Positions 8,493 to 20,801 of a DNA stretch of 47,997 bases are shown piece after piece (the stretch's first letter is position 1; every line of letters starts with the position of its first letter). This stretch comes from a virus: positions 1 to 47,997 of IMG/VR virus record IMGVR_UViG_3300045988_161434; one strand, given 5' to 3'. A program made the position numbers and the translations under genes. The notes beneath the pieces are model-generated. The model saw only the letters and a list, made by a program, of their open reading frames with translations, was not told where the DNA came from and ran no database searches.

Positions 8493-8673
8493 TACTAGTT
8501 TAAATTATTTAGCAATTGGCTCAATAATAGATGACATATTATCAAACACAAAAGGAACTACTCATTATATAGGACAAATAGAATGGACTATATTAGAAAT
8601 TAATAGTCATAAAATAACAATAACAATAAGGTATTTAAAAAGTTATGTAGAATGGAGATTTGATGAAAAATGA
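8470..8673 (+). CDS. hypothetical protein (probable internal start of track ORF 8413..8673)
   Basis: The track ORF overlaps the previous gene by 80 nt; an in-frame ATG at 8470 removes most of the overlap. Confidence 0.3.
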   Translation: MKMKIINNTSLNYLAIGSIIDDILSNTKGTTHYIGQIEWTILEINSHKITITIRYLKSYVEWRFDEK

Positions 8674-9301: not shown

Positions 9302-9585
9302 TGTTTGACTCAAGAGAATTAACAAAGAGAGGCTTGGAAAGAGAATTAAATAAAGTGCTAGAGAATTATATGATAATATATGATGAATACTATGAAACAA
9401 TGAGTAGAGACAGTGTTTTTCTAAAAGATTTAGCAGATGCCATCTTAGGAATAAGTGCTTGTCTTGAGGTTTATGCCAGAGATAAGTACATACATCCAAG
9501 TTATGTTATGGAAAAATTGGAAAATAGTAAGCACTATATAGATGCTTGTATAAAATATTACGATAATAAGCAGAAAAACAATTAA
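9301..9585 (+). CDS. hypothetical protein
   Basis: 94 aa. Confidence 0.4.
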   Translation: MFDSRELTKRGLERELNKVLENYMIIYDEYYETMSRDSVFLKDLADAILGISACLEVYARDKYIHPSYVMEKLENSKHYIDACIKYYDNKQKNN

Positions 9586-9613
9586 ATAAATATTTGAGAA
9601 AGGACTAGATAAA

Positions 9614-9880
9614 ATGGAATTATGGATTAGAAGTCAGAATAAAGAATGTTTAATAAAACTAGATGATTATATAAATTATTTTTATGACGATGAAGAAAAT
9701 GAGCATGGAATCGGCTCACACATGTTTACTTTAGGTGTTTATGAATCAAAAGAAAGAGCATTAGAAGTATTAGATGAGATACAAAATAAAATTAATTTGA
9801 TTAATTTAGGGCATGATTTTGGCAGTCCAATGGTAGATTTAAAAAACCCAACATATATTTATCAAATGCCAGAAAAATAG
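9614..9880 (+). CDS. hypothetical protein
   Basis: 88 aa; RBS AAAGGACTAGATAAAATG. Confidence 0.4.
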   Translation: MELWIRSQNKECLIKLDDYINYFYDDEENEHGIGSHMFTLGVYESKERALEVLDEIQNKINLINLGHDFGSPMVDLKNPTYIYQMPEK

Positions 9881-9890
9881 GAGGAATAAT

Positions 9891-10232
9891 ATGCGAAAAA
9901 AGCAAGAGTTTGAAGAAAATAATATAATTAATTTTGGTGAAGGTTGCTGGGGGATGAATATTAGTTTTTTAGATGATGGAAATACAAACTGGAAGAAACA
10001 AACTAGAATTTCAGGGCATTATCCATACAGAAGTAAAATTAAAAAGGGAACTTTGTTAATTAAAAAATGTAGTTTAGGTTATTTATACTTAAGAGTTAAA
10101 AAGGTTGAATATTGTAGAGACCCCGATGATATGTTTTTTGCAAATGTTATATATATTTGCAACGATAAAATGTTATCAAAAGAAGAACATAAATATTTAG
10201 AAGATAATAATTTATACAATTATTGTAATTAA
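9891..10232 (+). CDS. hypothetical protein
   Basis: 113 aa; RBS AGGAGGAATAATATG. Confidence 0.4.
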   Translation: MRKKQEFEENNIINFGEGCWGMNISFLDDGNTNWKKQTRISGHYPYRSKIKKGTLLIKKCSLGYLYLRVKKVEYCRDPDDMFFANVIYICNDKMLSKEEHKYLEDNNLYNYCN

Positions 10233-10255
10233 AATGTGAAAATTAGGAGGTAATT

Positions 10256-10429
10256 ATGAAAGATATAAATATTAATTACGAAGGTTTGAACTTTGAAGAA
10301 AAGATATCATTAAAAATAAATTATTTATTAAGTTTACCAGCAAGTGAAGCCGTAAAGAGTGCCTTACTTAACTTGAAGTGGGTACTAGAGATATATCAAG
10401 AAGAAAAAATGAAAGGAAGAAGAAGATAA
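10256..10429 (+). CDS. hypothetical small protein (57 aa, not in the track)
   Basis: ATG at 10256 preceded by AGGAGGTAATT; its TAA overlaps the next ATG (TAATG at 10427-10431). Confidence 0.3.
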   Translation: MKDININYEGLNFEEKISLKINYLLSLPASEAVKSALLNLKWVLEIYQEEKMKGRRR

Positions 10430-10821
10430 TGGATTTAAAAGCATTTGTAAATACTTATGATGAAAAGATAAGTAATTATATTGAAAAAAACTATGGTGAA
10501 ATACCTCGTTGCAGGGGATATGAACTTATGAGATTAGTTGAAAAATATGGAAATGATAGTGATGAACAAACATCTTTATATGATTCGTTTGTTGGGCAAG
10601 ATGTAATTTATATTCATACAAGATGTGGAGATTGTGGTTTGGGTTACGAAGATGAAGAAAGCAATTATGTTTATTGTGGTGCTAAAGAATGGGAAGAAAA
10701 GTATAAAGATTTGTTTATAGCACATTGTACTGATGAATTTGATAGCACATATTGTGACCATTATTTCAAAGCAGTAATTAATGATGAATACAAAGAATTA
10801 ATTAAGGATGAGGTGATGTAA
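10429..10821 (+). CDS. hypothetical Cys-rich protein (possible zinc-binding)
   Basis: True start is probably MDLKAFV at 10429 (RBS GAAAGGAAGAAGAAGATAATG), not the upstream M of the track ORF; motifs CRGY, CGDCGLGY, YVYCG and CDHY. Confidence 0.4.
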   Translation: MDLKAFVNTYDEKISNYIEKNYGEIPRCRGYELMRLVEKYGNDSDEQTSLYDSFVGQDVIYIHTRCGDCGLGYEDEESNYVYCGAKEWEEKYKDLFIAHCTDEFDSTYCDHYFKAVINDEYKELIKDEVM

Positions 10822-11069
10822 TGAAAACAATAAAATCAAGATTAGGAAAAGCAATAGCAGTATTTAAAAACGAAAATAAGTTTAAGTATGGCTACAGAGT
10901 AAAAGTTGTTAAAAACAATGGATTAAAAAAGTATGATAAATACATAGGCAAAGTAGGCATTTATGATGGATTAGAATACTGGAATAAAGAAAAACCATTT
11001 AGAGTAGATTTTTTAGATGGAACATGTCTATGCTTTAGTGAAGATGAACTAGAAAAGGTAGATAAATAG
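10821..11069 (+). CDS. hypothetical protein
   Basis: 82 aa; coupled start. Confidence 0.4.
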   Translation: MKTIKSRLGKAIAVFKNENKFKYGYRVKVVKNNGLKKYDKYIGKVGIYDGLEYWNKEKPFRVDFLDGTCLCFSEDELEKVDK

Positions 11070-11218
11070 TGGAACCACATAGAAGAAGAGAACTATTAAA
11101 GATTAGAAAGTCTTTTCTAGAAAGATATAAACTAGCAAAACAATTTAAAGATAAATTTTATACTGAATATTTTGCAAAGCAAATAAGAGAAATAGATAAA
11201 GAACTCAAAGAAGAATAA
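11069..11218 (+). CDS. hypothetical small protein (GTG start, 49 aa)
   Basis: GTG overlaps the preceding TAG (TAGTG), with AAAAGG 9 nt upstream; basic N-terminus. Confidence 0.25.
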   Translation: MEPHRRRELLKIRKSFLERYKLAKQFKDKFYTEYFAKQIREIDKELKEE

Positions 11219-11250
11219 GACAGATTCAGATAAAAATGGAGGTATTTTAA

Positions 11251-11655
11251 ATGAGAGAAATAGAATTGATAAAAAAATATAATTATGACCAAAAAAAGGC
11301 TCACGATTTACTTAAGGAAGAATTTGTAAAAGATTTACTAGAAGAAGTAAAAGACTTAATAAAAGAAAATAAAGTACTAACAAGGCAACTTGAATATATC
11401 AGAAGTGGAGAATATCTCAATCAATTAAAATTTGAAAGAAATATGCTAGAAGATGTAGTTTCTAATGGTGAAGTTTCAGAAACAGATAAAGCATTCATAG
11501 ATATGACACATAGAAATACTGAATTATTAGAAGAAAACAAAAAACTCAAAGAAAGAATAGATTATTTAGAAAGAAGTAATAACAGAAGAGAAGAATTGAT
11601 ACTGGAATTGAGGGAAGAATTGATACCAAGCAAAGGAGATAATGAAGATGTTTAG
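11251..11655 (+). CDS. hypothetical coiled-coil protein
   Basis: 134 aa; RBS AAAATGGAGGTATTTTAAATG. Confidence 0.4.
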   Translation: MREIELIKKYNYDQKKAHDLLKEEFVKDLLEEVKDLIKENKVLTRQLEYIRSGEYLNQLKFERNMLEDVVSNGEVSETDKAFIDMTHRNTELLEENKKLKERIDYLERSNNRREELILELREELIPSKGDNEDV

Positions 11656-12235: not shown

Positions 12236-12481
12236 ATGGGGAAACCATTAATTTATGATAAACCAATGACTAAAGCCCAAGCAAATGAAAGGTATAAAGA
12301 TAAAATGAAGTGTTGGAAGAACAGAAATTATTCTACATTTTGTTTTCATCTTCCAATAGATTTGGTAAACGAATTTAGAAAAAGAACCAAAGCAAATGGA
12401 GATACTCAAAGGCAATTAGTCATACAAATGATGAAAAATTATATAGAAAATGATAGGAGGAAAAGCAAAGATGGTATGTAG
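12236..12481 (+). CDS. putative ribbon-helix-helix (Arc/MetJ/CopG-like) DNA-binding protein
   Basis: Start MGKPLIYD has RBS AAAGGAGGAAAGATTATG; the C-terminal half FHLPIDLVNEFRKRTKANGDTQRQLVIQMMKNYI has a beta-strand then two-helix RHH pattern and resembles 12665..12868. Confidence 0.4.
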   Translation: MGKPLIYDKPMTKAQANERYKDKMKCWKNRNYSTFCFHLPIDLVNEFRKRTKANGDTQRQLVIQMMKNYIENDRRKSKDGM

Positions 12482-12665
12482 AATTAAAACCAAAGAAGAT
12501 TTAGAGTTGGAATTAGCAACAATGAAACTAATGTTACACTCTATGTACGATACTTTTGAGGACCTTCTCAGCAAGATTGCTGGAGACCCAGAACTTAACA
12601 ACACTAGATGGGAATGGGAAGAAAATTGTAGAAAAAAAGCAAGAGAAATATTAGGAGGAAAATAA
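12471..12665 (+). CDS. hypothetical protein
   Basis: Internal ATG at 12471 with RBS TAGGAGGAAAAGCAAAGATG. Confidence 0.35.
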   Translation: MVCRIKTKEDLELELATMKLMLHSMYDTFEDLLSKIAGDPELNNTRWEWEENCRKKAREILGGK

Positions 12666-12868
12666 TGGAAGAAGCAGTAAGAGATGAGATAACAAGAAAA
12701 GATGGAGTGACTTATAAAAGAAAGCCAAAAGATAAAAAGTACGACTGCTACTTATCCGTAAAAGTCAAATCAGAAATGAGAGATAAACTTAAAAAAAAAT
12801 GCAAGGAGAATGGCACTAACTATGCTGCTGTACTAAGAAAATTAGTCAGAATGTACATAGATAGTTAA
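12665..12868 (+). CDS. ribbon-helix-helix (CopG/Arc-like) DNA-binding protein
   Basis: 67 aa; YLSVKVKSEMRDKLKKKCKENGTNYAAVLRKLVRMYI matches the RHH strand-helix-helix layout; RBS AGGAGGAAAATAATG. Confidence 0.45.
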   Translation: MEEAVRDEITRKDGVTYKRKPKDKKYDCYLSVKVKSEMRDKLKKKCKENGTNYAAVLRKLVRMYIDS

Positions 12869-12955: not shown

Positions 12956-13204
12956 ATGGCAAAAACAAAAAACAGTACTAAAAGTTATTATCAAAAGAAC
13001 AAGAAGTACAGAGAAGAACTTATAAAGAAAGAAACTGAAAAGCATAAAAGAAATAGACCAAAGTATGCCAAAGAACAGAGAGAATACTACAAAGATAGTG
13101 AAGATTACAGAAGTTATAAGAAAAAGTATGCTAAGGCTTATAGAAAAAGAGAACCTATCAAATCTAAGGCTAGAAAAGATAGGAAGGCTCTAAAAGAGAG
13201 ATAA
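12956..13204 (+). CDS. hypothetical highly basic protein (Lys/Arg/Tyr-rich)
   Basis: 82 aa, about 40% K+R; RBS AAAGGAAAGGAATTGAATTTATTATG. Confidence 0.45.
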   Translation: MAKTKNSTKSYYQKNKKYREELIKKETEKHKRNRPKYAKEQREYYKDSEDYRSYKKKYAKAYRKREPIKSKARKDRKALKER

Positions 13205-13232
13205 TATAAGTTTTATAAGAGAAGAGACAAGT

Positions 13233-13252
13233 AAGAAGTTTCTTCTTTTTTT
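13233..13252 (+). terminator. rho-independent terminator of the rightward early region
   Basis: AAGAAG-TTT-CTTCTT hairpin followed by TTTTTT. Confidence 0.5.
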
Positions 13253-13397
13253 ACAACCACACTGAAAATTAAGAAGTTTTTAGAGAATTTGTTAAGAAGT
13301 TTTTGAATTTTTTCACCAAGAAGTTTTTGAAAAAAAGTGACAGAAACGGCAAAAATTTTCACTAAGAAGTTTTTCAGTTTTCATAGAGAAGTTTTCA
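13233..13397. repeat. iteron-like array: 6 direct copies of AAGAAGTTTT(T/C)
   Basis: Copies start near 13233, 13271, 13294, 13318, 13364 and 13387, mostly 23-24 bp apart; the region is ORF-free. Confidence 0.6.
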
Positions 13398-13428
13398 GTT
13401 TTTTTGAAATCAAAATAAAAAAGATGCC

Positions 13429-13451
13429 AAAAAAGATAGATTTTATCTATC
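13429..13451 (-). terminator. rho-independent terminator (minus strand) after gene 13443..13769
   Basis: Hairpin GATAGAT-TTT-ATCTATC overlapping the stop codon, adjacent to a plus-strand A-run (a U-run on the minus transcript). Confidence 0.45.
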
Positions 13452-13769
13452 AATTTTGAAATCTTTAAATATTTTTTGTACTTTTTCTTCAAGACTTTTA
13501 CTTGCTTTTTGGAAATAGGTATCTTCTTCATAGTAATTACATAAGTCATTTTCCATTTGATTATACAACCCACTACAATTATTATATACTAGGTCGTATA
13601 ATATTTCTTCTCTGACTGCTGTTTCAAACTCTTCCCAAGTAATATTTTTATCTTTAATATTGTCGGGCTTTCTTACACAATCAATATTCCAATACCACTC
13701 TGTTTCAGTCAAACTCCAAGTCCTTGTATATTCTACAATTTCCTCTGTCAATTGTTTTAATTCTTCCAT
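13443..13769 (-). CDS. hypothetical acidic protein (own leftward promoter PL3)
   Basis: 108 aa; RBS AAGAAAAGGAGGAATTATG. Confidence 0.45.
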   Translation of the reverse strand: MEELKQLTEEIVEYTRTWSLTETEWYWNIDCVRKPDNIKDKNITWEEFETAVREEILYDLVYNNCSGLYNQMENDLCNYYEEDTYFQKASKSLEEKVQKIFKDFKIDR

Positions 13770-13789
13770 AATTCCTCCTTTTCTTAACC

Positions 13790-13826
13790 TAATTATACCA
13801 CCTAATTTTTTTACTTATGACTATAG
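13790..13826 (-). promoter_or_regulatory. leftward promoter PL3: extended -10 (TGGTATAAT) plus the conserved upstream box CTATAGTCATAAGTAA at -26..-41
   Basis: Minus-strand -10 lies at plus 13792-13800; the box lies at plus 13811-13826; the same geometry recurs at 18036-18072 and 18273-18309. Confidence 0.5.
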
Positions 13827-14041
13827 GACTAATTTTTTTAATTTTTATAGAATATTTTTTCTATTTTTTTACTTTTGACTAAATTAAAACAAATAATCTT
13901 AATTCTGGCTTAGGTATTCAAACCATATCAAACAAAACACACTTGTCTAGTGTAATCATACTAGGAACATATAAAAGTCTCTTAAAACTAAAATAAATGC
14001 CTTTAAAATGCAATCACAATATTTGACTATTTCAAAATGAC

Positions 14042-14070
14042 AAAAAAAGACTATTTCTAGTCTTTATTTT
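14042..14070. terminator. bidirectional rho-independent terminator at the end of the leftward operon
   Basis: A-run, then AGACTA-TTTC-TAGTCT hairpin, then T-run. Confidence 0.5.
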
Positions 14071-14138
14071 CTAGGTTTATAACCTGCACCCTCAAGAGTT
14101 AATATAATAATTTTAAAGAATATATATAATATTATCAT

Positions 14139-14561
14139 TTATTCTACCACACTATCAATATAATCTCTTAAATCATCACTCATAAAGAAATCACTATCAT
14201 AAATTGTATTATCTAAGTCTTCTAATTCTTCATCTGATAATGATTTTACCACTTCTCTATCACTTCTTAAGAATAATGCAAGTGCTAATTCAAAAGTCCT
14301 ATAATCTTTTTCACTTAACCTCTCTAATTCTTCCATAATATTTAATACATCTTTTCTTATTTTTTCCATAACTAAATCACTCTCCTTAATAATATTTTTA
14401 AACATATTTACAATCATATCTCTATTATCTTCATAATCTTTATTTATCTTATTACTTACTTTTTTTTGTTCTTTTCTTAATTCTTCTTTTAAAAAGTCAT
14501 TTTCTTTTTCTAAGACTAAAATATAATCTATTAATTCTTCAAAAGTTAAATCACTCAACAT
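14139..14561 (-). CDS. hypothetical strongly acidic protein (last gene of the leftward operon)
   Basis: ATG at 14561 with RBS AAGGATAGTGATTAATATG; the track start at 14570 is a GTG inside the RBS; D/E-rich. Confidence 0.45.
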   Translation of the reverse strand: MLSDLTFEELIDYILVLEKENDFLKEELRKEQKKVSNKINKDYEDNRDMIVNMFKNIIKESDLVMEKIRKDVLNIMEELERLSEKDYRTFELALALFLRSDREVVKSLSDEELEDLDNTIYDSDFFMSDDLRDYIDSVVE

Positions 14562-14562
14562 A

Positions 14563-14787
14563 TTAATCACTATCCTTAACTTCAGTATGTACCCCTAAGT
14601 AGTTATTCAAATACCACTCAAAACAATTAAACATTTCTTGTGTTAACTGTGCATCATCTAATATATTATCTATAATATAATTTTTATCTGCATCAGTTAA
14701 ATCATTAACTTTATCAAATACTTCACTATTAAATTCAGTATTATCAAGCCAAATATTAAACTCTTCTTCCAAACCTTTTTTAAACAT
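14563..14787 (-). CDS. hypothetical small acidic protein
   Basis: 74 aa; RBS AAGGAGAGTGAGTAATAATG; ends with DSD and its stop sits inside the next gene's RBS. Confidence 0.45.
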   Translation of the reverse strand: MFKKGLEEEFNIWLDNTEFNSEVFDKVNDLTDADKNYIIDNILDDAQLTQEMFNCFEWYLNNYLGVHTEVKDSD

Positions 14788-14789
14788 TA

Positions 14790-15008
14790 TTACTCACTCT
14801 CCTTATTTTCTAATTCTTCCACAATAGATAGTTCAAATTTATCAATAAATCTTTCTAAAAACTCAAGCATAATATTAAAGTCCGTTTCCGTAAGTTCTGC
14901 CTTGTACTCGCTTTTATAATCATCATCTAATTCATTGTTAAATTCGTTTTGTAGTGCATAAATTAAATCTTTCACTTTTTCAATAGTTATTTTTTTATCT
15001 TCAAACAT
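14790..15008 (-). CDS. hypothetical small acidic protein
   Basis: ATG at 15008 with RBS GGGAGAGTGAGTGAATATG; C-terminal KESE encoded by the downstream RBS. Confidence 0.45.
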   Translation of the reverse strand: MFEDKKITIEKVKDLIYALQNEFNNELDDDYKSEYKAELTETDFNIMLEFLERFIDKFELSIVEELENKESE

Positions 15009-15010
15009 AT

Positions 15011-15229
15011 TCACTCACTCTCCCATTTCCTTATTGCTTTTTCTTCTAAATCATCTCTTATATCATCTAATTTATCAACGAAGATATTACTATCTCCACT
15101 ACTATAGAATATTCCTAAATCTCCTAAATCATAAATTAAATCAACAAGTTTACTATAACTATTATAATATTCTCTTTTATTATGATTTTCTTTTAAATCA
15201 AAATATTTATTTAATATATCATTTAACAT
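15011..15229 (-). CDS. hypothetical small acidic protein
   Basis: Real start MLNDIL at 15229 with RBS AAGGAGAGTGATTAAGATG; C-terminal WESE. Confidence 0.45.
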   Translation of the reverse strand: MLNDILNKYFDLKENHNKREYYNSYSKLVDLIYDLGDLGIFYSSGDSNIFVDKLDDIRDDLEEKAIRKWESE

Positions 15230-15230
15230 C

Positions 15231-15476
15231 TTAATCACTCTCCTTGCTTTCAATATAAATATTATCACTGCTAGTAAACTCATCTATACTATAACCTAAA
15301 TACCCCATGTGGTCATAATTAATAACTACTATGCTATTGTTATCATAGTCTTCTAATTCTTTTAATAAATCTTCATAATCTTCACTATCTTTAAACTCAT
15401 TATGAATATATTTTTTTATTACACTTACTTGTCCTAATAAACAATCTCCATTATCATATAAACTATTATTCATCAT
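15231..15476 (-). CDS. hypothetical small acidic protein
   Basis: 81 aa; RBS AAGGATAGTGAATAGTTATG; C-terminal KESD. Confidence 0.45.
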   Translation of the reverse strand: MMNNSLYDNGDCLLGQVSVIKKYIHNEFKDSEDYEDLLKELEDYDNNSIVVINYDHMGYLGYSIDEFTSSDNIYIESKESD

Positions 15477-15478
15477 AA

Positions 15479-15775
15479 CTATTCACTATCCTTACTCATT
15501 GCCAAAAAACTAATTTTATTTGCCATTATATACATTTCATTATCATTGCTTAGTTTACATAAGCAAGCATCAACACCTATTAAGTCTCCCATTTTACAAT
15601 ACTCAAGTGTTGCTAATTTAATTTCTTTATTTTTAACTAGTACTTTAATGAAGTCGCTATCATAGTCTCCCATTTTATTTTTATAATATCTAGGTACTGC
15701 TATTGTAATTTCAGCACTCTCTCTATTTTCTTCTATCTTTGTTATTCTTCCAATCAACATAACTCTATTCATCAT
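15479..15775 (-). CDS. single-stranded DNA-binding protein-like OB-fold protein (short SSB)
   Basis: Start MMNRVMLIGRITK matches the canonical SSB N-terminus (MNRVxLIGRLT); about 99 aa with a beta-rich OB pattern; RBS AAGGAGAGTGAATAAAATG. Confidence 0.55.
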   Translation of the reverse strand: MMNRVMLIGRITKIEENRESAEITIAVPRYYKNKMGDYDSDFIKVLVKNKEIKLATLEYCKMGDLIGVDACLCKLSNDNEMYIMANKISFLAMSKDSE

Positions 15776-15776
15776 T

Positions 15777-16010
15777 TTATTCACTCTCCTTAACTTCTTC
15801 AATTCCTACATAATGTGAATAATTACATCTGATATTATCAATTAATTCATCTAAAGAATTATACTCACTATTCTCACTATTTAAAATCTCCCTTATAAGA
15901 AAATTAATTGTAGCCATATTTTCCCTCATATTATCTTCTTTATTTTTGTATTTAAACTCATAAACACGAATTTTTTCACATACCACTACTTCTTTAGTCT
16001 TAATTTTCAT
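15777..16010 (-). CDS. hypothetical small protein
   Basis: 77 aa; C-terminal KESE; its start overlaps the upstream stop (TAATATG). Confidence 0.45.
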   Translation of the reverse strand: MKIKTKEVVVCEKIRVYEFKYKNKEDNMRENMATINFLIREILNSENSEYNSLDELIDNIRCNYSHYVGIEEVKESE

Positions 16011-16011
16011 A

Positions 16012-16191
16012 TTACATCATCTCACTTTCTATATCTTCAATATTTTCTTTCATTTTATCAATTAATTCTTTTATTTTTTCTATTTCTTCTTCAGAATACT
16101 TTTTGTTCCATATATAATAATCATTAAATAGTACTCTTGCATTTTCAAATAGAATAAATATGTTATTTTTTATGTTCCAATCACTTCTCAT
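16012..16191 (-). CDS. hypothetical small protein (59 aa, not in the track)
   Basis: ATG at 16191 with a strong RBS GGAGGTGGAATAATATG and an ATGA overlap with the upstream stop; fills the only gap in the operon. Confidence 0.35.
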   Translation of the reverse strand: MRSDWNIKNNIFILFENARVLFNDYYIWNKKYSEEEIEKIKELIDKMKENIEDIESEMM

Positions 16192-16664
16192 ATTATTCCA
16201 CCTCCACTTTTAATAAAATTTTCAATGATTTTTCCGTTCCCCTTGCCAAGATAATATGGGTTTTCTTTATTTTTTTCTTTACATAGACTATACATAATAT
16301 TGTTTACCTCGTATAATTCTTGTCTATCAAATATTTCGTAATATTCTTCAATATAACCTCCACTCAATATAGTCTGCACCATATATAGAGTATCATCTAT
16401 GCTTAACTTATAATATTCATTATCATAATCTATCTTTGATATAATAGCATAAGTCCCATTAACACCATTTTCAACATAGCATTTTGCATAATCTAATGCT
16501 TTATTATAATCTAATTCAAATGCTACATTTTCATCATAATAACCATATTGTTTGTCATAAACATTATTATAGCAATCATAATCTTCGTGTCCTTCATCTT
16601 TAGTCCATAAAACACCAACCTCAATTTTATATATATTGAATTTTAATTTGATATTGTTAACCAT
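16188..16664 (-). CDS. hypothetical acidic Tyr-rich protein
   Basis: Start MVNNIKL at 16664 after GAAAGTGAGTGAATAAAATG; about 158 aa. Confidence 0.45.
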   Translation of the reverse strand: MVNNIKLKFNIYKIEVGVLWTKDEGHEDYDCYNNVYDKQYGYYDENVAFELDYNKALDYAKCYVENGVNGTYAIISKIDYDNEYYKLSIDDTLYMVQTILSGGYIEEYYEIFDRQELYEVNNIMYSLCKEKNKENPYYLGKGNGKIIENFIKSGGGII

Positions 16665-16665
16665 T

Positions 16666-17040
16666 TTATTCACTCACTTTCTTTTTCCCATACATAAATC
16701 TATTCTTATTCTCTTTATCGTACATTATAATGTTTTCTCTTCTCTGCTTAGGAGTTAAGCCATTATAAACCACATAGTAATTGTCTAAGTCAAAAGGAAT
16801 AGTTATATCTTTTAAATCGTTACTTTTTGCAATCAAGTCAAAATTGTTATAATCTCCCTCAATAAATGCTTTAAATATCATAGAGCCAACCAAACCCTCT
16901 TTATTATAATAACTTAATATATGCTTAGTAATGTCTTCTATCTCATTTGAAAACACATTTATATCAAAAACCCTAAATCTCTTTCTATCTATTAAAGTGA
17001 TTTTTTGTGAAACCCCTCTAATCAAAATATAACTATACAT
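16666..17040 (-). CDS. hypothetical protein
   Basis: Probable start MYSYILIRG at 17040 with RBS AAGGTGGTGGCAACAAATG; the track start at 17091 is a TTG. Confidence 0.4.
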   Translation of the reverse strand: MYSYILIRGVSQKITLIDRKRFRVFDINVFSNEIEDITKHILSYYNKEGLVGSMIFKAFIEGDYNNFDLIAKSNDLKDITIPFDLDNYYVVYNGLTPKQRRENIIMYDKENKNRFMYGKKKVSE

Positions 17041-17380
17041 TTGTTGCCACCACCTTATTATACTTTCTGATTGTTTCTCTACACCAATCAAAAAACTCTT
17101 TTAAATGTTTTATGTCGTTGAAGTTATCAATATTAAGTAAGTAACTATTATTTCCAATTAAATCACTAGCATACCATTTGATTTCTTTTTCAGTAATCAC
17201 ATCTTTATCAAAATATTCCATAACATCAAATATATCAAAACACTCTACAAACTTAAATCTTCTAAATCTTGTTCCCTCTTCATTATAAATCTTTCCATAG
17301 GCTATATAATAATAATTATGTGCCATATCATTGTTAACCTCTAATAACTTATACATTCTTGTAATTCTAAAATCTACCAT
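17033..17380 (-). CDS. hypothetical protein
   Basis: Probable start MVDFRITRM at 17380 with RBS GAGAGGAGATGTTTGTTATG. Confidence 0.4.
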   Translation of the reverse strand: MVDFRITRMYKLLEVNNDMAHNYYYIAYGKIYNEEGTRFRRFKFVECFDIFDVMEYFDKDVITEKEIKWYASDLIGNNSYLLNIDNFNDIKHLKEFFDWCRETIRKYNKVVATNV

Positions 17381-17408
17381 AACAAACATCTCCTCTCATT
17401 TCTTTTAA

Positions 17409-17672
17409 TTATATATAATAGATTGTATCAACAATATTCTCGTTCTTATCATAGATATATCTACATACAAACTCTATGATAAGTGGAGACTTGCCGACTT
17501 CTGCTAATTCAATACTACAATTATAACAATCATTTACTTCATCATATTCACTATTACAATTACTTATTTCACTACTATAATCGTATATGTTATCACTATA
17601 GTATCTATCAAAATATTTACTTGCTTTCTCTCCAATGTATTTACCTAATTCTTCATAACTAATTTTCTTCAT
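17409..17672 (-). CDS. hypothetical acidic Cys-containing protein
   Basis: Start MKKISYEEL at 17672 with RBS AAAGGAGGGTGAATAGTATG. Confidence 0.4.
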   Translation of the reverse strand: MKKISYEELGKYIGEKASKYFDRYYSDNIYDYSSEISNCNSEYDEVNDCYNCSIELAEVGKSPLIIEFVCRYIYDKNENIVDTIYYI

Positions 17673-17687
17673 ACTATTCACCCTCCT

Positions 17688-17714
17688 TTACAAACTAGAA
17701 CTATCTTGTATAAT
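17688..17714 (+). promoter_or_regulatory. candidate rightward (antisense) promoter inside the leftward operon, embedded in the second operator pair
   Basis: TTTACA, 15-bp spacer, TGTATAAT (TATAAT at 17709-17714), between the operator copies at 17691-17703 and 17730-17742. Confidence 0.3.
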
Positions 17715-17742
17715 ATTTACAAACTTATACAAACTAGAACTA
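17691..17742. repeat. second pair of CAAACTAGAACTA direct repeats (operator candidates), 39 bp apart
   Basis: Exact 13-mers at 17691-17703 and 17730-17742 in the only sizeable intergenic gap of the leftward operon. Confidence 0.5.
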
Positions 17743-17756
17743 TTTTACCTATTTTT

Positions 17757-18005
17757 TTAATTTTTGTTATCTTTCTGACAACAATTTAATATTTCTATAT
17801 AAACAAGCATTAAACTATTAACATATCTATTTTCATAGCAATTTCTAATATCTTCAATGCTGTCATATAGGACATCATCATTTTCAAAAGCCCAACCATA
17901 TAGAAAATCTTTTGTATTGATTTTTTTTAGTGATTGATATTTGTTTTTATCAACATTTTTTCTTAGTCTTTTGATTTCCTCAAACATTTCCTCTAAATCA
18001 TACAT
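17757..18005 (-). CDS. hypothetical protein (first gene of the leftward operon)
   Basis: 82 aa; RBS AAAGGAGAAATTATTATG. Confidence 0.45.
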   Translation of the reverse strand: MYDLEEMFEEIKRLRKNVDKNKYQSLKKINTKDFLYGWAFENDDVLYDSIEDIRNCYENRYVNSLMLVYIEILNCCQKDNKN

Positions 18006-18035
18006 AATAATTTCTCCTTTCCCTCTTTGACAATC

Positions 18036-18072
18036 ATATCATACCACACTTTTTTTCTAGTTATGACTATAG
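18036..18072 (-). promoter_or_regulatory. leftward promoter PL2: extended -10 (GTGTGGTATGAT) plus the upstream box CTATAGTCATAACTAG at -27..-41
   Basis: The minus-strand -10 lies at plus 18038-18046; the box lies at plus 18058-18072. Confidence 0.5.
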
Positions 18073-18073
18073 A

Positions 18074-18157
18074 AAGAAGTTTTTGATATTTTTGTAAAAA
18101 AGTTTTCATTTTCTATCTCAAAAAGAAGTTTTTCATATATTCTATAGAGAAGTTTTT
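18074..18157. repeat. second iteron-like array: 3 full copies of AAGAAGTTTTT plus 1 degenerate copy
   Basis: Copies at 18074, 18123 and 18148, with a degenerate copy at 18099. It shares an extended unit, AAGAAGTTTTTCA-N8-ATAGAGAAGTTTT, with the 13364-13397 array. Confidence 0.55.
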
Positions 18158-18222
18158 TTCCTTTTCCATAGAATAATGATTTTTGATTTCATAGAACACT
18201 CTTTTTTTGCCTTTTGCCACCA

Positions 18223-18247
18223 ATCAATCATTAATTAATTGATTGAT
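18223..18247. repeat. 25-bp near-perfect palindrome ATCAATCA-TTAATTAAT-TGATTGAT
   Basis: Inverted repeat read directly from the sequence; lies between iteron array 2 and PL1. Confidence 0.5.
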
Positions 18248-18272
18248 AGACACCTCTTTTTTGATTACATAT

Positions 18273-18309
18273 ATATTATATCATTAAATATTTTTACTTA
18301 TGACTATAG
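18273..18309 (-). promoter_or_regulatory. leftward promoter PL1 with the same geometry: TGATATAAT plus the box CTATAGTCATAAGTAA
   Basis: -10 at plus 18275-18283; the box at plus 18294-18309 is identical to the 13811-13826 copy. Confidence 0.45.
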
Positions 18310-18340
18310 ACAAAAAAACATCAAAAAAAAGAATACTTTT

Positions 18341-18553
18341 TTAGTATTCTTCGCTAATTATTAGATACTTTTTATCAATTAAATGTTTGTAACCATTGTC
18401 TATACTATATATTATATTGTTGAATATACTTTTATTATTCTTTAGGTTGATGTCTCTTCTTAATTCATTAATATTTAGATATTCTTTTATATATTCAATA
18501 TCATTATTACTATTATTATATTTATATAATATGTATCTTCTTTTTCTTTTCAT
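18341..18553 (-). CDS. hypothetical basic/Asn-rich protein
   Basis: 70-aa ORF. Confidence 0.35.
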   Translation of the reverse strand: MKRKRRYILYKYNNSNNDIEYIKEYLNINELRRDINLKNNKSIFNNIIYSIDNGYKHLIDKKYLIISEEY

Positions 18554-18559
18554 TTGCTT

Positions 18560-18775
18560 TTACTCTTCTTCTTGTTCTTCTTTGTAGTATGTTTCGTATG
18601 TCTCAGTGTCTTCAAATTCTAAATATTGCTCAATTTCTCTATAACCTGTCAAAATATAAAGAACATTGTCTAAAGTGTCCTCACAATACCCATCAAGTGC
18701 AACGGCTACGTCAAGAGTTTGCTCCTCTGCTATATTTGTATCTAATAAATAGTTATAATATTCTTCTAAAGTCAT
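18560..18775 (-). CDS. hypothetical strongly acidic protein (Glu/Tyr-rich)
   Basis: 71 aa; RBS AAAAGGAAAGAGGTAAAATAAAATG. Confidence 0.4.
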   Translation of the reverse strand: MTLEEYYNYLLDTNIAEEQTLDVAVALDGYCEDTLDNVLYILTGYREIEQYLEFEDTETYETYYKEEQEEE

Positions 18776-18813
18776 TTTATTTTACCTCTTTCCTTTTAAA
18801 ATTATTTTATTGT

Positions 18814-18966
18814 TTATTTTACTAATTTACTTATGTAACATTTACAAGCATGTAAACTTAATAGATTAGTCTTTATATATTCATTATCTTTTTTTATATG
18901 CCACATATAGTCATTTATTAGTGGTATATACTCAATTTCACATACATAACCTTTATAGCTTATCAT
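18814..18966 (-). CDS. hypothetical small protein (50 aa, not in the track)
   Basis: Strong RBS AAAAAAGGAGGTGGCTGAATATG. Confidence 0.3.
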   Translation of the reverse strand: MISYKGYVCEIEYIPLINDYMWHIKKDNEYIKTNLLSLHACKCYISKLVK

Positions 18967-19072
18967 ATTCAGCCACCTCCTTTTTTATACATCTATATTA
19001 TACATCTTTTTCATATAAATGTCAATACTTTTATATATTGCTATATAAATATATATATATATAAGATATATG

Positions 19073-19094
19073 TATATAGTGTTAACACTATATA
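19073..19094. repeat. perfect 22-bp palindrome TATATAGTGTTAACACTATATA within a roughly 260-bp very AT-rich region containing (AT)n runs
   Basis: Seen directly in the sequence; the surrounding 18990-19260 has no credible ORF. Confidence 0.55.
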
Positions 19095-19260
19095 TAGTAT
19101 ATATTATATTCTTTATTATACTATTAGTACTATATATTATAAAAGGGCAAAAAGTAATTAGTTTTTTTATCTTTATAAAGGTTAATACTTTTATATATAT
19201 AAATGTAATGTTCTTTATATGTCTATATTTCCTAGTTATCATATTGTGCAATAATGAAAC

Positions 19261-19380
19261 TAGACGCCCCTACCAACCCCCCTATATAGACTGGAAATAT
19301 GCCCGAATTACCCCCTCTCCCAACTTCAACAAAAAATTCAAGAGGGAAAAATCCCATCCCCAACTAGAGCAAAAATTTCA
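19261..19380. other. C-rich island (multiple C3-C7 runs; G-runs on the minus strand) in an otherwise AT-rich genome, a candidate structured origin or recombination site
   Basis: CGCCCCTACCAACCCCCCTA ... CCCCCTCTCCC ... CCCATCCCC; no supported ORF. Confidence 0.35.
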
Positions 19381-19392
19381 AAAGGCAAAAAA

Positions 19393-19405
19393 GTGTGGTA
19401 TAATA
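19393..19405 (+). promoter_or_regulatory. extended -10 promoter (TGTGGTATAAT) for the HExxH gene
   Basis: Same GTGGTATAAT core as the leftward promoters; the -35 is weak (ATTTCA). Confidence 0.4.
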
Positions 19406-19424
19406 GAAGTGAAGGTAAAGAAAG

Positions 19425-19787
19425 ATGAAAGAGATAGGAAAGGTAAAGATAATAAATAGGGAGTATAGGATATATGGACATGAAGAATTAAAAGAGATAA
19501 ATGAGGCATATAATAAAGCATGTGAAGAATGTGAGATAGAGGAAAATAAGGGAAATAGGGAAGTAGTAGATGGCTTTTGTGATTATTGTAAGAAAGAGAT
19601 ACATGTTCTAGTAAGGAAAGATAAGGAATATGAAGAAGAAGTATTAAGGCATGAAGTAACACATTGTTTGCTATTTCAGATGGGGTATTCGTTTCATAAT
19701 GATGAAGAATGGGTAGAAAAGATAAGTAAGATAAGTAAGGTACTAGAAGATACGATAGAAAGTATTGACAAAATAAAAACAGAGTGA
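19425..19787 (+). CDS. small HExxH zinc-metallopeptidase-like protein (ImmA/SprT-like) with a CxxC...CxxC zinc ribbon
   Basis: 120 aa; HEVTH motif followed by hydrophobic residues; CEEC and CDYC pairs upstream. Confidence 0.4.
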   Translation: MKEIGKVKIINREYRIYGHEELKEINEAYNKACEECEIEENKGNREVVDGFCDYCKKEIHVLVRKDKEYEEEVLRHEVTHCLLFQMGYSFHNDEEWVEKISKISKVLEDTIESIDKIKTE

Positions 19788-20314
19788 TACAATGAAGGTG
19801 GATTGAGGAAGAGAAGTAGAGGCTTTCTTAATCTAACAAACATCACACATCAAATAAGATGTATCTCAGTGTTACTTCTCGTAAGTAGCACAGAGTAGGT
19901 ATATTAATTTAAGTAGCAGATATTGAGGAATAAAACTAATTGTTTGAAAAATATGAAGTACAAATATTTTAGATTAGTGTAGAAATTGAAAACGACTCAA
20001 TGGTACAAGTGCGAAACTTGTATGTATCTATTCTGTGGTGCTTAAGAAAAAAGCACTAGCCCCTTTTTATATAGAAAGTTTTTTATTTTCTAATGTGTTG
20101 TGTTTAAAATTGTAAACTAAGAACTTTTTTTGACCAAAAAACTACACTGCTTGTTATAGGCAGTGTGCTGAGATGTATAAAAAAACGAGCATGGAAGAAA
20201 GGTTTTCATTCTAGAAAGTTTCTGTAGAGGTTTGAGTCCTCTGAAATCCATTATATCTTGGCACAGTGCTTATGAATAACTCTAAATGCACACTATTTTA
20301 ACCCCCTTTATTGA

Positions 20315-20344
20315 AAGAGACTTTAAATAAGAGTCTCTTTTATT
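20315..20344 (+). terminator. rho-independent terminator at the end of the ORF-free structured region
   Basis: 8-bp stem AAGAGACT / AGTCTCTT with a 9-nt loop, followed by TTTTATT. Confidence 0.45.
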
Positions 20345-20504
20345 ATTGATAAAGGGAAATTAAAGTGATATAATAAAGATGTAAATAAAGGGATTGTGAT
20401 GCCAATGAGAAGAAAAGTAGAAAATAAGGAAAAAGATTAGGTGGAAAAATGTTAATGTAATGTTTTTTTGCCTTTTTTTTAAATAAAGAGAAGGAAAGGA
20501 GAAA

Positions 20505-20801
20505 GTGATGGATGATATTTATAATGAAATAAGGAAGGCAATGTTCAAGAATGTTGATGAATTATATCAAAATAGGAAGAAAATAAGGAAAGAATATCAA
20601 AATTTAGAAGAATATGCAAAAAAAGAAGTGTATAAGTGGTGGTTTTTCTTCTATTTGTGTCAATTAAAGAACCCTTTGAAGGAATTATTGTGGGATTATT
20701 TGAATAATAGAGGGAATGAACAAGTACTTGCAAATGAATATAAAAACTTTTGTGAAAAGAGGAAAATGCTTTATCCCCCTGAAATTGACAAAATAGACTA
20801 A
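20505..20801 (+). CDS. hypothetical protein
   Basis: 98 aa; RBS GAAAGGAGAAAGTGATG. Confidence 0.4.
   Translation: MMDDIYNEIRKAMFKNVDELYQNRKKIRKEYQNLEEYAKKEVYKWWFFFYLCQLKNPLKELLWDYLNNRGNEQVLANEYKNFCEKRKMLYPPEIDKID

What the first reader, a model, noticed from the sequence alone, without database searches (positions are those of the whole stretch)
14139..18005. Leftward 13-gene operon of tiny, very acidic proteins with near-identical coupling junctions and an embedded SSB: candidate early host-takeover / anti-defence island
Thirteen contiguous minus-strand ORFs of 59-161 aa overlap or abut through stereotyped junctions of the form AAGGAGAGTGAATA(A)ATG. Because of this, most upstream proteins end in K/W-E-S-E or -S-D encoded by the next gene's RBS. 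Most products are strongly acidic and D/E/Y/N-rich, the composition of DNA-mimic and anti-restriction proteins; only the SSB-like member could be assigned a function. One member (15479-15775) is a short SSB-like OB-fold protein, which suggests interaction with ssDNA or recombination intermediates. The block is the only sizeable leftward unit in a rightward genome. It has its own promoters (PL2, PL1) with a private upstream box, is bracketed by iteron arrays, and ends at a bidirectional terminator.
Basis: partly seen in the sequence, partly recalled or inferred. Interest (0 to 1): 0.7.

Follow-up and report, generated by a model that had tools for sequence, protein, structure and literature searches.

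The report
Shufflable array of tiny acidic phage genes
A 48-kb human-gut phage carries a leftward block of 17 very small, soluble, mostly acidic genes of unknown function that related phages swap one gene at a time at a shared ribosome-binding-site junction; it is most likely an early-expressed set of host-manipulating or counter-defence proteins, a known kind of phage region, and no function is shown for any gene except a minimal SSB.

Summary
Thirteen tightly packed minus-strand genes (18005-14139) are real and under purifying selection. All are predicted soluble, and they are more acidic than the phage's other small proteins (p=4e-4). A stereotyped AAGGAGAGTGA(A/T)TAA..ATG junction links many of them. 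The promoter box, the iteron-like arrays and the terminator are all present.

Three corrections apply.
- The leftward unit is larger: 18966-13443, 17 genes in three transcription units.
- g13 is a read-through fusion of two cassettes.
- The junction is an extended Shine-Dalgarno sequence, not a motif private to this block.

Only g8 has a recognisable family. It is a 98-aa SSB OB-fold core without the C-terminal tail, and one close relative lacks it. No protein matches Ocr, ArdA, an anti-CRISPR or any other known family.

New evidence comes from relatives. Phages that are 94-99% identical in the flanks differ by whole single-gene cassettes. Crossovers fall inside the junction core. The same cassettes sit at the head of early replication operons in another phage lineage. 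The g5 domain (confident model, no known fold) also occurs inside giant acidic proteins encoded next to a T4 gp13-like head-completion gene.

Verdict: an early accessory effector array. 'Host takeover or anti-defence' is plausible but unproven, and DNA mimicry is untested. It is a new variant of a known kind.

The parts
18997..19025 (-). Promoter of transcription unit 1: TTGACA, 17-nt spacer, TATAAT (12 of 12 consensus positions)
   Evidence: sequence read
18814..18966 (-). u3, 50 aa, pI 8.5, no family
   Evidence: 84% identical in L041
18560..18775 (-). u2, 71 aa, the most acidic product (net charge -20, 31% D+E)
18341..18553 (-). u1, 70 aa, basic (pI 9.45). The most conserved gene of the block (dN/dS 0.02-0.10) and the only one also found in a relative with TerL at 83% identity (L013). 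Candidate regulator by inference only
   Evidence: no PDB or Pfam support
18323..18352 (-). Intrinsic terminator after u1: 10-bp stem followed by a U-run
   Evidence: z -3.05
18275..18309 (-). Promoter PL2: box CTATAGTCATAA (18309-18298) and extended -10 TGATATAAT (18283-18275)
   Evidence: family D2; conserved in L039 and L041
18215..18252 (-). Strong conserved hairpin or palindrome in the PL2 leader (free energy -15.5 kcal/mol). Either an RNA element or an operator
   Evidence: z -5.6
18075..18158 (-). Upstream iteron-like array: AAAAACTTCT repeats with a period of about 24 bp, between PL2 and PL1. Expanded to 7 exact copies in relative L041
18038..18072 (-). Promoter PL1: box CTATAGTCATAA (18072-18061) and extended -10 TGGTATGAT (18046-18038)
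17757..18005 (-). g1, 82 aa, pI 4.9. Replaced by an unrelated 84-aa gene in L041
17409..17672 (-). g2, 87 aa, pI 4.35, four Cys including CYNC. Core gene, 98-100% identical in relatives
17033..17389 (-). g3, 118 aa (or 115 aa from the second ATG). Core gene, 96-99% identical in relatives
16666..17040 (-). g4, 124 aa, basic (pI 9.0). A cassette precisely absent from L041 and L039
16188..16664 (-). g5, 158 aa. Member of a large uncharacterised family (335 clusters at 50% identity). Confident alpha/beta model with no known fold match. The domain also occurs inside giant acidic phage proteins
16012..16191 (-). g6, 59 aa, pI 4.6
15777..16010 (-). g7, 77 aa, ends in KESE
15479..15775 (-). g8, 98 aa. 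SSB-family OB-fold core without the C-terminal tail. No other SSB was detected among the window proteins scanned. Absent from relative L039
15231..15476 (-). g9, 81 aa, pI 4.05. Cassette shared with L036, L039 and L043
15011..15229 (-). g10, 72 aa. Its protein is 100% identical in L043, a phage of another lineage
14790..15008 (-). g11, 72 aa, 31% D+E. No homologue in any locus fetched
14563..14787 (-). g12, 74 aa, pI 4.05. Cassette shared with L036, L037, L039 and L043, at different positions in the array
14139..14561 (-). g13, 140 aa. Read-through fusion of two cassettes. The internal junction AAGGAGAGTGATTTAGTTATG at 14387-14367 reads in frame as KESDLVM. The C-terminal 77 aa is a stand-alone protein in many contigs, and the N-terminal part is a stand-alone 67-aa ORF in L005
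14042..14065 (-). Intrinsic terminator after g13: 8-bp stem followed by U7
13792..13826 (-). Promoter of d1: third copy of the box CTATAGTCATAA (13826-13815) and extended -10 TGGTATAAT (13800-13792)
13443..13769 (-). d1, 108 aa, pI 4.4. In L036 its homologue follows the g13 homologue directly within the operon. Deleted in L041
13429..13451 (-). Intrinsic terminator after d1
   Evidence: z -4.7
13233..13397 (-). Downstream iteron-like array: 4 exact and 2 degenerate AAAAACTTCT repeats with a period of 23-24 bp
   Evidence: conserved in L039 and L041

Best explanation
The block is a separately regulated, early-expressed accessory array of single-gene cassettes. Each cassette encodes a small, soluble, usually acidic protein. 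These proteins most likely act one by one as stoichiometric binders or inhibitors of host proteins, either for host takeover or for counter-defence.

Proposed expression (inferred). Host sigma-A RNA polymerase starts at a consensus promoter (u3-u2-u1) and at three extended -10 promoters that share the box CTATAGTCATAA (PL2, PL1, Pd1). The box and the two AAAAACTTCT arrays are sites for a regulator that has not been identified. From g3 to g13 each start codon lies 1-2 nt from, or overlaps, the preceding stop codon, behind a strong extended Shine-Dalgarno sequence, so the cistrons are translationally coupled.

Proposed evolution (shown for the pattern, inferred for the mechanism). The same roughly 11-20-nt SD-stop-start junction flanks unrelated cassettes in several phages. 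It is where cassettes are gained, lost and reordered, probably by short-homology recombination. The phage encodes a RecT.

Shown: the genes are real and constrained; they are soluble and acidic; cassettes vary at single-gene resolution and crossovers fall in the junction; homologues sit in early operons; the g5 and DUF8033 domains occur in large proteins encoded among virion genes.

Inferred: early timing, host targets, any anti-defence activity, and a role for RecT.
For: - Real genes. Pooled pN/pS is 0.25 over 25 cassette pairs. The g5 model has pLDDT 90.9 and pTM 0.86. Every start has a strong SD.
- Soluble. No segment in any of the 17 proteins has a 19-residue Kyte-Doolittle mean above 1.11, whereas several rightward small proteins exceed 1.6.
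- Acidic. More acidic than the phage's other small proteins, p=4e-4.
- No known family except SSB.
- Accessory and hypervariable. L041 lacks g1, g4, g9-g12 and d1. L039 lacks g4-g6, g8, g10 and g11. Both carry other, mostly acidic cassettes instead, inside flanks that are 94-99% identical. L043 has the order Y72-g9-g10-g13C-g12.
- Exchange points. Nearly all of the dozen homology-block ends checked lie within 23 nt of a gene boundary; the exceptions end 19-32 nt short of a stop codon, where the C-termini differ. In L039 and L043 the switch of partner falls within the AAGGAGAGTGA / GGAGAGTGA core.
- Shared junction. It flanks non-homologous cassettes in L036, L037, L039, L041 and L043. The 20-base version occurs in only 8 of 2.9 million IMG/VR contigs.
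- Early context elsewhere. Homologues of g9, g12, g13 and d1 lie at the head of operons that continue into a DEAD/ResIII helicase, an AAA protein and a VapE primase. In L036 this operon is divergent from an HTH_3 gene.
- Link to invasion-stage proteins. The g5 domain is embedded in acidic proteins of 500-1477 aa. Two of these lie immediately downstream of Phage_T4_gp13 homologues, and one of the two is followed by a DUF8033 protein. This matches the description of polyvalent proteins and their solo domains (PMC5512222).
- g5 neighbours elsewhere: SprT-like, PcfJ, DUF1281_C and DUF4313 genes.
- Promoters and terminators.
- Analogy. [quoted passage not shown]
Against: - No expression data, so 'early' is inferred.
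- The three box promoters lack a -35 element. They could be activator-dependent middle promoters, or repressor-controlled.
- No cassette matches any known anti-defence or takeover protein by sequence, and g5 matches none by fold.
- Acidity is only compositional evidence, and half of this phage's other small proteins are also acidic.
- Breakpoints at gene boundaries are also expected from illegitimate recombination followed by selection for intact genes.
- Looser variants of the junction (GGAG/GGAA followed by GTGAT) precede several rightward genes, and the core with at most 1 mismatch occurs three times outside the block, once exactly just upstream of the gene at 34878, so it is not dedicated to cassette exchange.
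- Relatives defined by TerL (60-84% identity) have no comparable leftward block within 10 kb upstream of TerL.
Confidence: 0.55

Rival explanations
1. Replication and recombination accessory module. The SSB works with the phage RecT and DnaB replisome. The small acidic proteins are its partners or regulators. The two AAAAACTTCT arrays are origin iterons bound by the DnaD/O-like initiator.
For: g8 is a bona fide SSB-family OB fold, and no other SSB was detected among the window proteins scanned. RecT, an MBL-fold hydrolase, a replication initiator and DnaB are encoded elsewhere in the genome. The arrays have iteron-like periodicity and variable copy number. In L036 and L037 the homologous cassettes are co-transcribed with helicase and primase genes.
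Against: The SSB is absent from the close relative L039, which otherwise keeps the same architecture. It lacks the C-terminal tail that normally recruits partner proteins. No other product has any similarity to a replication protein. Cassettes are gained and lost freely, which is not expected of a replisome. The arrays lie about 25 kb from the initiator gene, and no copies occur in or next to it.
Confidence: 0.15
2. The acidic products are specifically DNA mimics that block restriction-modification or other DNA-binding defences.
For: Several products have pI 4.05-4.5 with 23-31% D+E. The replacement cassettes in relatives are also acidic. Presence or absence of cassettes is hypervariable, as expected under an arms race. 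There is precedent in the SPO1 takeover module, where Gp44 is a DNA mimic (PMC8208478).
Confidence: 0.15
3. Prophage-expressed 'moron', superinfection-exclusion or lysogenic-conversion block, as in the leftward lysogeny modules of temperate phages of Firmicutes.
For: The orientation is leftward and divergent from a rightward cluster. The phage encodes a tyrosine recombinase. The three transcription units have their own promoters and terminators, as morons do.
Against: There is no repressor or integrase in or beside the block; the recombinase lies at 3134-4039 inside the rightward operon. All 17 products lack membrane or signal segments. Homologous cassettes in L036 and L037 lie on the lytic side of the HTH_3 switch and are co-oriented with replication genes.
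Confidence: 0.08
4. The ORFs are chance reading frames in AT-rich DNA and the junction is a simple repeat.
For: Low-GC genomes contain many spurious ORFs. No database family was hit for 16 of the 17 products.
Against: dN/dS is 0.02-0.63 for all shared cassettes. Gene callers on independent contigs give the same genes. The g5 family has 335 clusters with conserved residues and a confident fold. The g13 C-terminal family has many members. Coding-strand GC skew flips exactly over the block.
Confidence: 0.01

Closest known systems
Host-takeover module of Bacillus phage SPO1 (genes 37-60)
   Same: A compact cluster of many mostly small genes organised in short operons, with promoters and ribosome-binding sites typical of highly expressed early genes. 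The products act individually on host targets such as RNA polymerase, HU, ClpC and cell division. Some are acidic DNA mimics (PMC6873191, PMC8208478, PMC8892312).
   Different: There is no sequence similarity. SPO1 is a 130-kb virulent myovirus and its module lies in the terminal redundancy. Here the phage is a 48-kb siphovirus-like genome with one long translationally coupled operon, a private promoter box, flanking iteron-like arrays, and documented single-cassette exchange at a shared junction. Timing and toxicity are untested here.
Anti-defence islands in the leading region of conjugative plasmids
   Same: Co-oriented arrays of small genes, many uncharacterised, with an embedded SSB. They are expressed first on entry and their combinations vary between elements (PMC11541004). 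Homologues of g5 lie in arrays with SprT-like, PcfJ, DUF1281_C and DUF4313 genes.
   Different: This is a phage, with no oriT or type IV secretion system. No recognisable anti-CRISPR, anti-restriction, PsiB or methyltransferase gene is present. No Frpo-like single-strand promoter was sought or seen.
Polyvalent proteins of phages and conjugative elements, and their solo-domain counterparts
   Same: The g5 domain and DUF8033 occur both as solo cassettes (here and in L036 and L039) and inside very large multidomain proteins encoded among virion genes. This is the solo/fused duality described in PMC5512222 for factors that act during and just after invasion.
   Different: The window's proteins are all solo. 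The giant proteins found here contain none of the catalytic domains catalogued for polyvalent proteins (no Pfam hit in 9 of 10). Their packaging into virions is inferred from gene neighbourhood only.
Conserved boundary sequences and mosaic early regions of lambdoid and dairy phages (own knowledge, not checked in the library)
   Same: Gene-sized mosaic modules with exchange points at gene boundaries. Early regions made of many small ORFs that include an SSB and a single-strand annealing protein.
   Different: Here the boundary is one specific SD-stop-start motif, in a fixed reading frame, reused at many consecutive junctions and shared between two phage lineages. This gives single-gene cassette behaviour.
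Integron cassette arrays
   Same: A one-directional array of small, promoter-less, individually exchangeable cassettes downstream of a common promoter.
   Different: There are no attC-type imperfect inverted repeats and no adjacent IntI. The junction is a ribosome-binding site. Exchange looks like short-homology recombination rather than site-specific recombination.

Membership tests
Bacterial/phage SSB (Pfam PF00436), for g8 | Profile match above the curated threshold across the OB-fold core | tested here: met
   30.8 bits against a cut-off of 26. phrog_44 at 4e-10. Aligns over residues 1-83 to SsbB 3vdy and to SsbA and S. aureus SSBs, E 6e-9 to 6e-7.
Bacterial/phage SSB (Pfam PF00436), for g8 | Disordered C-terminal tail ending in an acidic partner-binding tip (D-D-D-I/L-P-F type) | tested here: not met
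   The protein ends ...FLAMSKDSE at residue 98, directly after the last OB-fold strand.
Bacterial/phage SSB (Pfam PF00436), for g8 | ssDNA binding and oligomerisation | not testable with these tools
   Needs EMSA and SEC-MALS. Aromatic positions equivalent to E. coli W40 and W54 are Y and F, and the F60 equivalent is not aromatic (reading of the alignment).
DNA-mimic anti-restriction proteins (Ocr, ArdA, Arn and similar) | Sequence or profile homology to a known mimic family | tested here: not met
   No hit in Pfam, PHROGs or NCBIfam, or among PDB sequences, for any of the 17 products.
DNA-mimic anti-restriction proteins (Ocr, ArdA, Arn and similar) | Surface array of carboxylates that mimics the B-DNA phosphate backbone | not testable with these tools
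The only confident model (g5) has no mimic-like match. The g13 model is too poor to use.
DNA-mimic anti-restriction proteins (Ocr, ArdA, Arn and similar) | Strongly negative net charge | tested here: met
   pI 4.05-4.6 for u2, g2, g5, g9-g13 and d1, with net charge down to -20. This feature is necessary but far from sufficient.
Known anti-CRISPR or other anti-defence families | Homology or fold match to a characterised member | tested here: not met
Phage host-takeover module (SPO1 type) | Cluster of small genes with strong promoters and strong ribosome-binding sites | tested here: met
   17 genes of 50-158 aa. One 12/12 consensus promoter and three extended -10 promoters. AAGGAG-type SD at nearly every start.
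Phage host-takeover module (SPO1 type) | Transcription early in infection | not testable with these tools
   Only indirect evidence: homologues sit at the head of early operons in L036 and L037.
Phage host-takeover module (SPO1 type) | Products shut off or redirect host processes (growth inhibition on expression) | not testable with these tools
   Requires expression in the host, which is uncultured; relatives of the phage are binned with 'Bacilli bacterium' MAGs.
Integron cassette array | attC recombination sites between cassettes and an adjacent IntI integrase | tested here: not met
   Junctions are 1-20 nt of SD-stop-start with no inverted-repeat structure. The only tyrosine recombinase is 10 kb away at 3134-4039.
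Polyvalent proteins (PMC5512222) | Two or more effector domains in one polypeptide, encoded with virion or transfer genes | tested here: not met
   All products in the window are single small domains; g13 is a two-cassette fusion only. Relatives of the g5 domain do meet the criterion in other phages.

The most novel reading that the evidence does not exclude
The stereotyped SD-stop-start junction has two roles. It couples translation, and it also serves as a portable recombination linker. This would make the block an integron-like but recombinase-independent 'effector library', in which single-gene cassettes are exchanged among co-infecting gut phages of different lineages by short-homology annealing (RecT plus SSB). 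The same pool of small acidic domains would be deployed in two ways: as immediate-early solo proteins here, or concatenated into giant proteins with LxE-type (ESLKE) linkers, encoded next to a T4 gp13-like head-completion gene in myoviruses, then processed, packaged and injected with the DNA.
Probability: 0.2. Interest if true: 0.75.

Novelty: new variant of a known kind. Interest (0 to 1): 0.5.

Why it matters
Hypervariable early-gene arrays are where phages keep their counter-defence and host-takeover tools. Most such genes in gut phages of uncultured hosts are uncharacterised. This block offers about 25 defined, exchangeable cassettes (17 here and about 10 alternatives in relatives) with clear boundaries. 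That makes it a ready panel for screens of toxicity, anti-defence activity or interaction partners. The g5 family (335 clusters, confident fold with no known match, solo or embedded in giant proteins encoded next to head-completion genes) is a concrete candidate for a new invasion-stage effector domain. If the shared junction really is the exchange site, it would be a simple, general mechanism for single-gene modular evolution. It could also be used to find such arrays computationally.

Tried and rejected
- Megablast of the block against 50,697 GenBank phages found no match. TerL has at most 25% identity to any isolate phage.
- One homologous-protein search was wasted on a concatenation of all non-SSB products. 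It returned nothing, apparently because of how candidates are selected.
- SSB-based and HExxH-gene-based scans of IMG/VR gave nothing or only truncated relatives.
- Relatives found through TerL (60-84% identity) do not carry the block within reach, so they could not be used for comparison.
- Paralogy among the 17 products as the source of the repeated junction was rejected: all-against-all BLASTP gives nothing better than E=0.001.
- I suspected u1 to be an HTH regulator from its sequence pattern. Pfam, PHROGs and a PDB profile search give no support, so it is kept only as a weak idea.
- AF2 on g13 gave pLDDT 62, so it was not used for fold search.
- The AlphaFold-DB fold library was unavailable.
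- Rfam found nothing in 13200-20600.
- Pfam and PHROGs on 10 plus 10 replacement cassettes from relatives gave only DUFs or families of unknown function.
- The box and the iteron motif are absent from the L036/L037/L043 lineage, so they belong to this phage lineage and not to the cassette pool.

Full report
CONTEXT. The window is an essentially complete phage contig of about 48 kb and about 27% GC from human gut metagenomes. The identical 47,997-bp scaffold is in ENA, and near-identical contigs of 48.07 and 48.1 kb occur in two other samples. PHROG and Pfam hits give the layout:
- A rightward early and replication region that wraps around the contig end. It holds a small HTH protein, a DnaD/O-like initiator at 44459-45223, DnaB at 45210-46427, RecT at 166-996, an MBL-fold hydrolase, a tyrosine recombinase at 3134-4039, a MazG-like protein, and then about 35 tiny genes up to 13204.
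- The leftward block.
- A rightward cluster from 19425 (an HExxH, SprT-like protein) that runs into terminase, portal, capsid, tail and endolysin genes (25.2-44.0 kb).
No isolate phage is close: megablast finds nothing and TerL is at most 25% identical. Relatives found through TerL are binned with uncultured 'Bacilli bacterium' MAGs.

THE OBSERVATION.
- With RBS-supported starts, the 13 genes encode 59-158 aa. From g3 to g13 they overlap by 4-8 nt or are 1-2 nt apart.
- AAGGAGAGTGA (at most 1 mismatch) occurs 10 times against 1.1 expected, with 7 copies in the block. Seven products end in K/W-(E/D/V)-S-(E/D).
- The products are more acidic than the 58 other small proteins of the same phage: median net charge per residue -0.085 against -0.013, Mann-Whitney p=4e-4. 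They are enriched in D, F, Y, S and N.
- None has a membrane-like segment, unlike several rightward small proteins.
- g8 is an SSB-family OB fold (Pfam 30.8 bits against a cut-off of 26; SsbB 3vdy at 6e-9). It stops right after the last strand and has no C-terminal tail. No other SSB was detected among the window proteins scanned.
- The box CTATAGTCATAA occurs exactly three times in 48 kb, each 13-14 nt upstream of a TGnTATAAT-type extended -10.
- AAAAACTTCT occurs seven times, only in two arrays with a 23-24-bp period.

CORRECTIONS TO THE ANATOMY.
- The leftward unit is 18966-13443 and has three transcription units: (i) u3-u2-u1, from a perfect TTGACA-17-TATAAT promoter to its own terminator; (ii) PL2/PL1 through g1-g13 to a terminator; (iii) a third box promoter, d1 and a terminator. 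The downstream iteron array lies beyond d1.
- A strong conserved hairpin or palindrome sits in the PL2 leader.
- g13 contains an in-frame copy of the junction (AAGGAGAGTGATTTAGTTATG, read as KESDLVM). Its last 77 residues exist as a stand-alone protein of 77-82 aa in many contigs, one cluster having 158 member sequences. Its N-terminal part is a separate 67-aa ORF in another phage. g13 is therefore two cassettes joined by loss of the stop codon (TAA to TTA). The internal SD and ATG are intact, so the C-terminal protein may still be made separately.
- The junction resembles the full anti-SD complement of Firmicutes (AAGGAGGTGA; own knowledge). Looser variants (GGAG/GGAA followed by GTGAT) precede several rightward genes, and the core itself recurs three times outside the block. 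It is a strong ribosome-binding site with the stop codon in the spacer, not a private signal.

ARE THEY GENES, AND OF WHAT KIND?
- Every cassette shared with a relative is under purifying selection: dN/dS 0.02-0.63 and pooled pN/pS 0.25. u1 is the most constrained.
- Apart from g8, none of the 17 products, nor about 20 replacement cassettes from relatives, hits a family of known function in Pfam, PHROGs or NCBIfam. The window's own 17 products also have no match among PDB sequences.
- They are not paralogues of each other.
- g5 belongs to a family of 57 clusters at 90% identity. A profile search of 1.84 billion representatives finds 335 clusters at 50% identity, 163 of them at E of 1e-10 or better.
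- The g13 model is poor (pLDDT 62, all-helical) and was not searched.

COMPARATIVE EVIDENCE. Two true relatives with the same genome architecture were recovered, L039/L040 (a Hadza gut sample) and L041.
- Flanks are 94-99% identical, and the box promoters, the leader hairpin and both arrays are conserved. Array B is expanded to seven exact repeats in L041.
- A different phage lineage (L036, L037/L038, L043; contigs of 52-58 kb) carries homologues of g9, g10 (protein 100% identical), g12, g13 or its C-terminal half, and d1. DNA identity is 80-92%, and the orders differ again. There the cassettes are embedded in a run of tiny genes at the head of an operon that continues into a DEAD/ResIII helicase, an AAA protein and a VapE-type primase. 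In L036 that operon is divergent from an HTH_3 (CI-like) gene.
- Nearly all of the dozen homology-block ends checked lie within 23 nt of a start codon or gene boundary; three end 19-32 nt before a stop codon, where the C-termini differ.
- In L039 (g9 joined to g12) and in L043 (g10 joined to the g13 C-terminal half), the switch of partner falls inside the shared AAGGAGAGTGA or GGAGAGTGA core.
- The same junction, with the same KESE/KESD-type C-termini, flanks non-homologous cassettes in all these phages. Its 20-base form occurs in only 8 of 2.9 million IMG/VR contigs, 6 of them from one gut data set.
- The replacement cassettes are again mostly acidic, pI 4.05-4.5.

A LINK TO INVASION-STAGE PROTEINS. 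The g5 domain also occurs inside very acidic proteins of 500-1477 aa (23-27% D+E). Nine of the ten examined have no Pfam domain. Two of them (1477 and 1336 aa) lie immediately downstream of Phage_T4_gp13 (head-completion) homologues. In one locus the next gene, 603 aa, carries DUF8033, the same domain that is a solo cassette in L039 and L036, and a T4-type baseplate gene follows. Large multidomain proteins encoded among virion genes, whose domains also exist as solo genes in related elements, are the signature of the 'polyvalent proteins' proposed to act during and just after DNA entry (PMC5512222). Elsewhere, g5 homologues sit in long co-oriented arrays with SprT-like, PcfJ, DUF1281_C and DUF4313 genes. 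Co-oriented arrays of small genes with an embedded SSB are also the hallmark of plasmid leading-region anti-defence islands (PMC11541004).

INTERPRETATION. The best-supported reading is an early accessory effector array (confidence about 0.55). Small soluble acidic proteins are made in a coupled fashion from strong promoters, and each probably binds a host factor. The closest functional analogue is the SPO1 host-takeover module, whose genes are mostly small, made early and have strong promoters and RBSs. It includes a DNA mimic of RNA polymerase and an HU inhibitor (PMC6873191, PMC8208478, PMC8892312). Whether the targets are defence systems or housekeeping machinery cannot be decided here. 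The narrow DNA-mimic reading rests on charge alone (about 0.15).

A replication-accessory reading (about 0.15) has the SSB, the iteron-like arrays and the co-transcription with replication genes in the other lineage in its favour. Against it stand the loss of the SSB in L039, the missing SSB tail and the free turnover of cassettes. A prophage-expressed moron or exclusion block is unlikely (about 0.08): there is no repressor or integrase nearby, the proteins have no membrane segments, and the homologues sit on the lytic side of the switch. Spurious ORFs are excluded.

The role of the box and the arrays is unresolved. Because the three box promoters lack a -35 element, they may need an activator or be held by a repressor. 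u1 is basic, is the most conserved gene of the block and is transcribed from the consensus promoter. It is a candidate regulator without any homology support.

NOVELTY. Hypervariable early regions and anti-defence islands are well known, so this is not a new kind of system. Three things go beyond the usual picture:
- One fixed-frame SD-stop-start junction is reused at consecutive boundaries and shared between phage lineages, with crossovers mapped inside it. This gives true single-gene cassette behaviour.
- A stop-loss fusion was caught in the act (g13).
- At least two cassette domains connect to giant acidic proteins encoded next to head-completion genes.
I rate it a new variant of a known kind, with interest 0.5.

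Noticed in passing
window 19790-20500 (+): A 711-nt ORF-free stretch, richer in GC than its surroundings, between the HExxH/SprT-like gene and the next rightward gene. It folds far better than shuffled sequence (z -5.3, 20 shuffles only) and has no Rfam match. From 20021 onward it is 94-99% conserved in relatives, while 19902-20021 is replaced. It could be a structured RNA, attP or a packaging-related site.
   Followed up: partly
window 19030-19365: Divergent control region. An AT-rich part carries two copies of ATATATAAAAGTATT(G/A)AC..TTTATA, one of which contains the consensus leftward promoter. A striking C-rich patch follows at 19255-19365 (+). Contigs of two IMG/VR relatives begin at 19362 and 19499, so assemblies tend to break here.
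   Followed up: partly
L042 4920-9353 and 9364-11175; L051 1049-5059: Giant acidic proteins (1477 and 1336 aa) containing the g5-like domain lie directly after T4 gp13-like head-completion genes. In L042 the neighbouring gene carries DUF8033. P0119 has 8 ESL[KENQ]E motifs against 0.03 expected. These resemble L-x-E prohead-protease sites of T4-type phages (own knowledge), which suggests processed, capsid-packaged, injected proteins.
   Followed up: partly
window 17671-17748 (-): Two copies of ATAGTTCTAGTTTGTA, 39 nt apart, in the 84-nt gap between g1 and g2, the only sizeable gap inside the operon. This may be an internal regulatory site or promoter.
   Followed up: no
window 17409-17672 (-), g2: g2 has four cysteines, including a CYNC pair, and is 98-100% identical in both close relatives. 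It may be a small zinc-binding core component of the block.
   Followed up: no
window 3134-4039 (+): A tyrosine recombinase sits in the middle of the long rightward early operon, and no CI-type repressor was found anywhere in the window. Only a 49-aa HTH protein (44310-44459) and two weak RHH-like proteins (12236-12481 and 12665-12868) were seen. Whether the phage is temperate, a plasmid-prophage or virulent is unclear.
   Followed up: partly
window 5000-11400 (+) compared with L002, L009, L039 and L041: The rightward array of tiny genes is also mosaic between near-identical phages. Segments are replaced, and an HNH homing endonuclease is inserted in L002 and L041. It does not use the stereotyped junction.
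   Followed up: partly
L004, L005, L006 (IMG/VR contigs of 79-108 kb): Homologues of g5, the g13 N-terminal part and d1 also occur in much larger phage-like contigs from the same data set, inside long co-oriented runs of small genes. The cassette pool therefore spans elements of very different size.
   Followed up: partly
window 29354-29428 (+): A tRNA-Leu (anticodon TAA) lies between the portal and the following structural genes.
   Followed up: no
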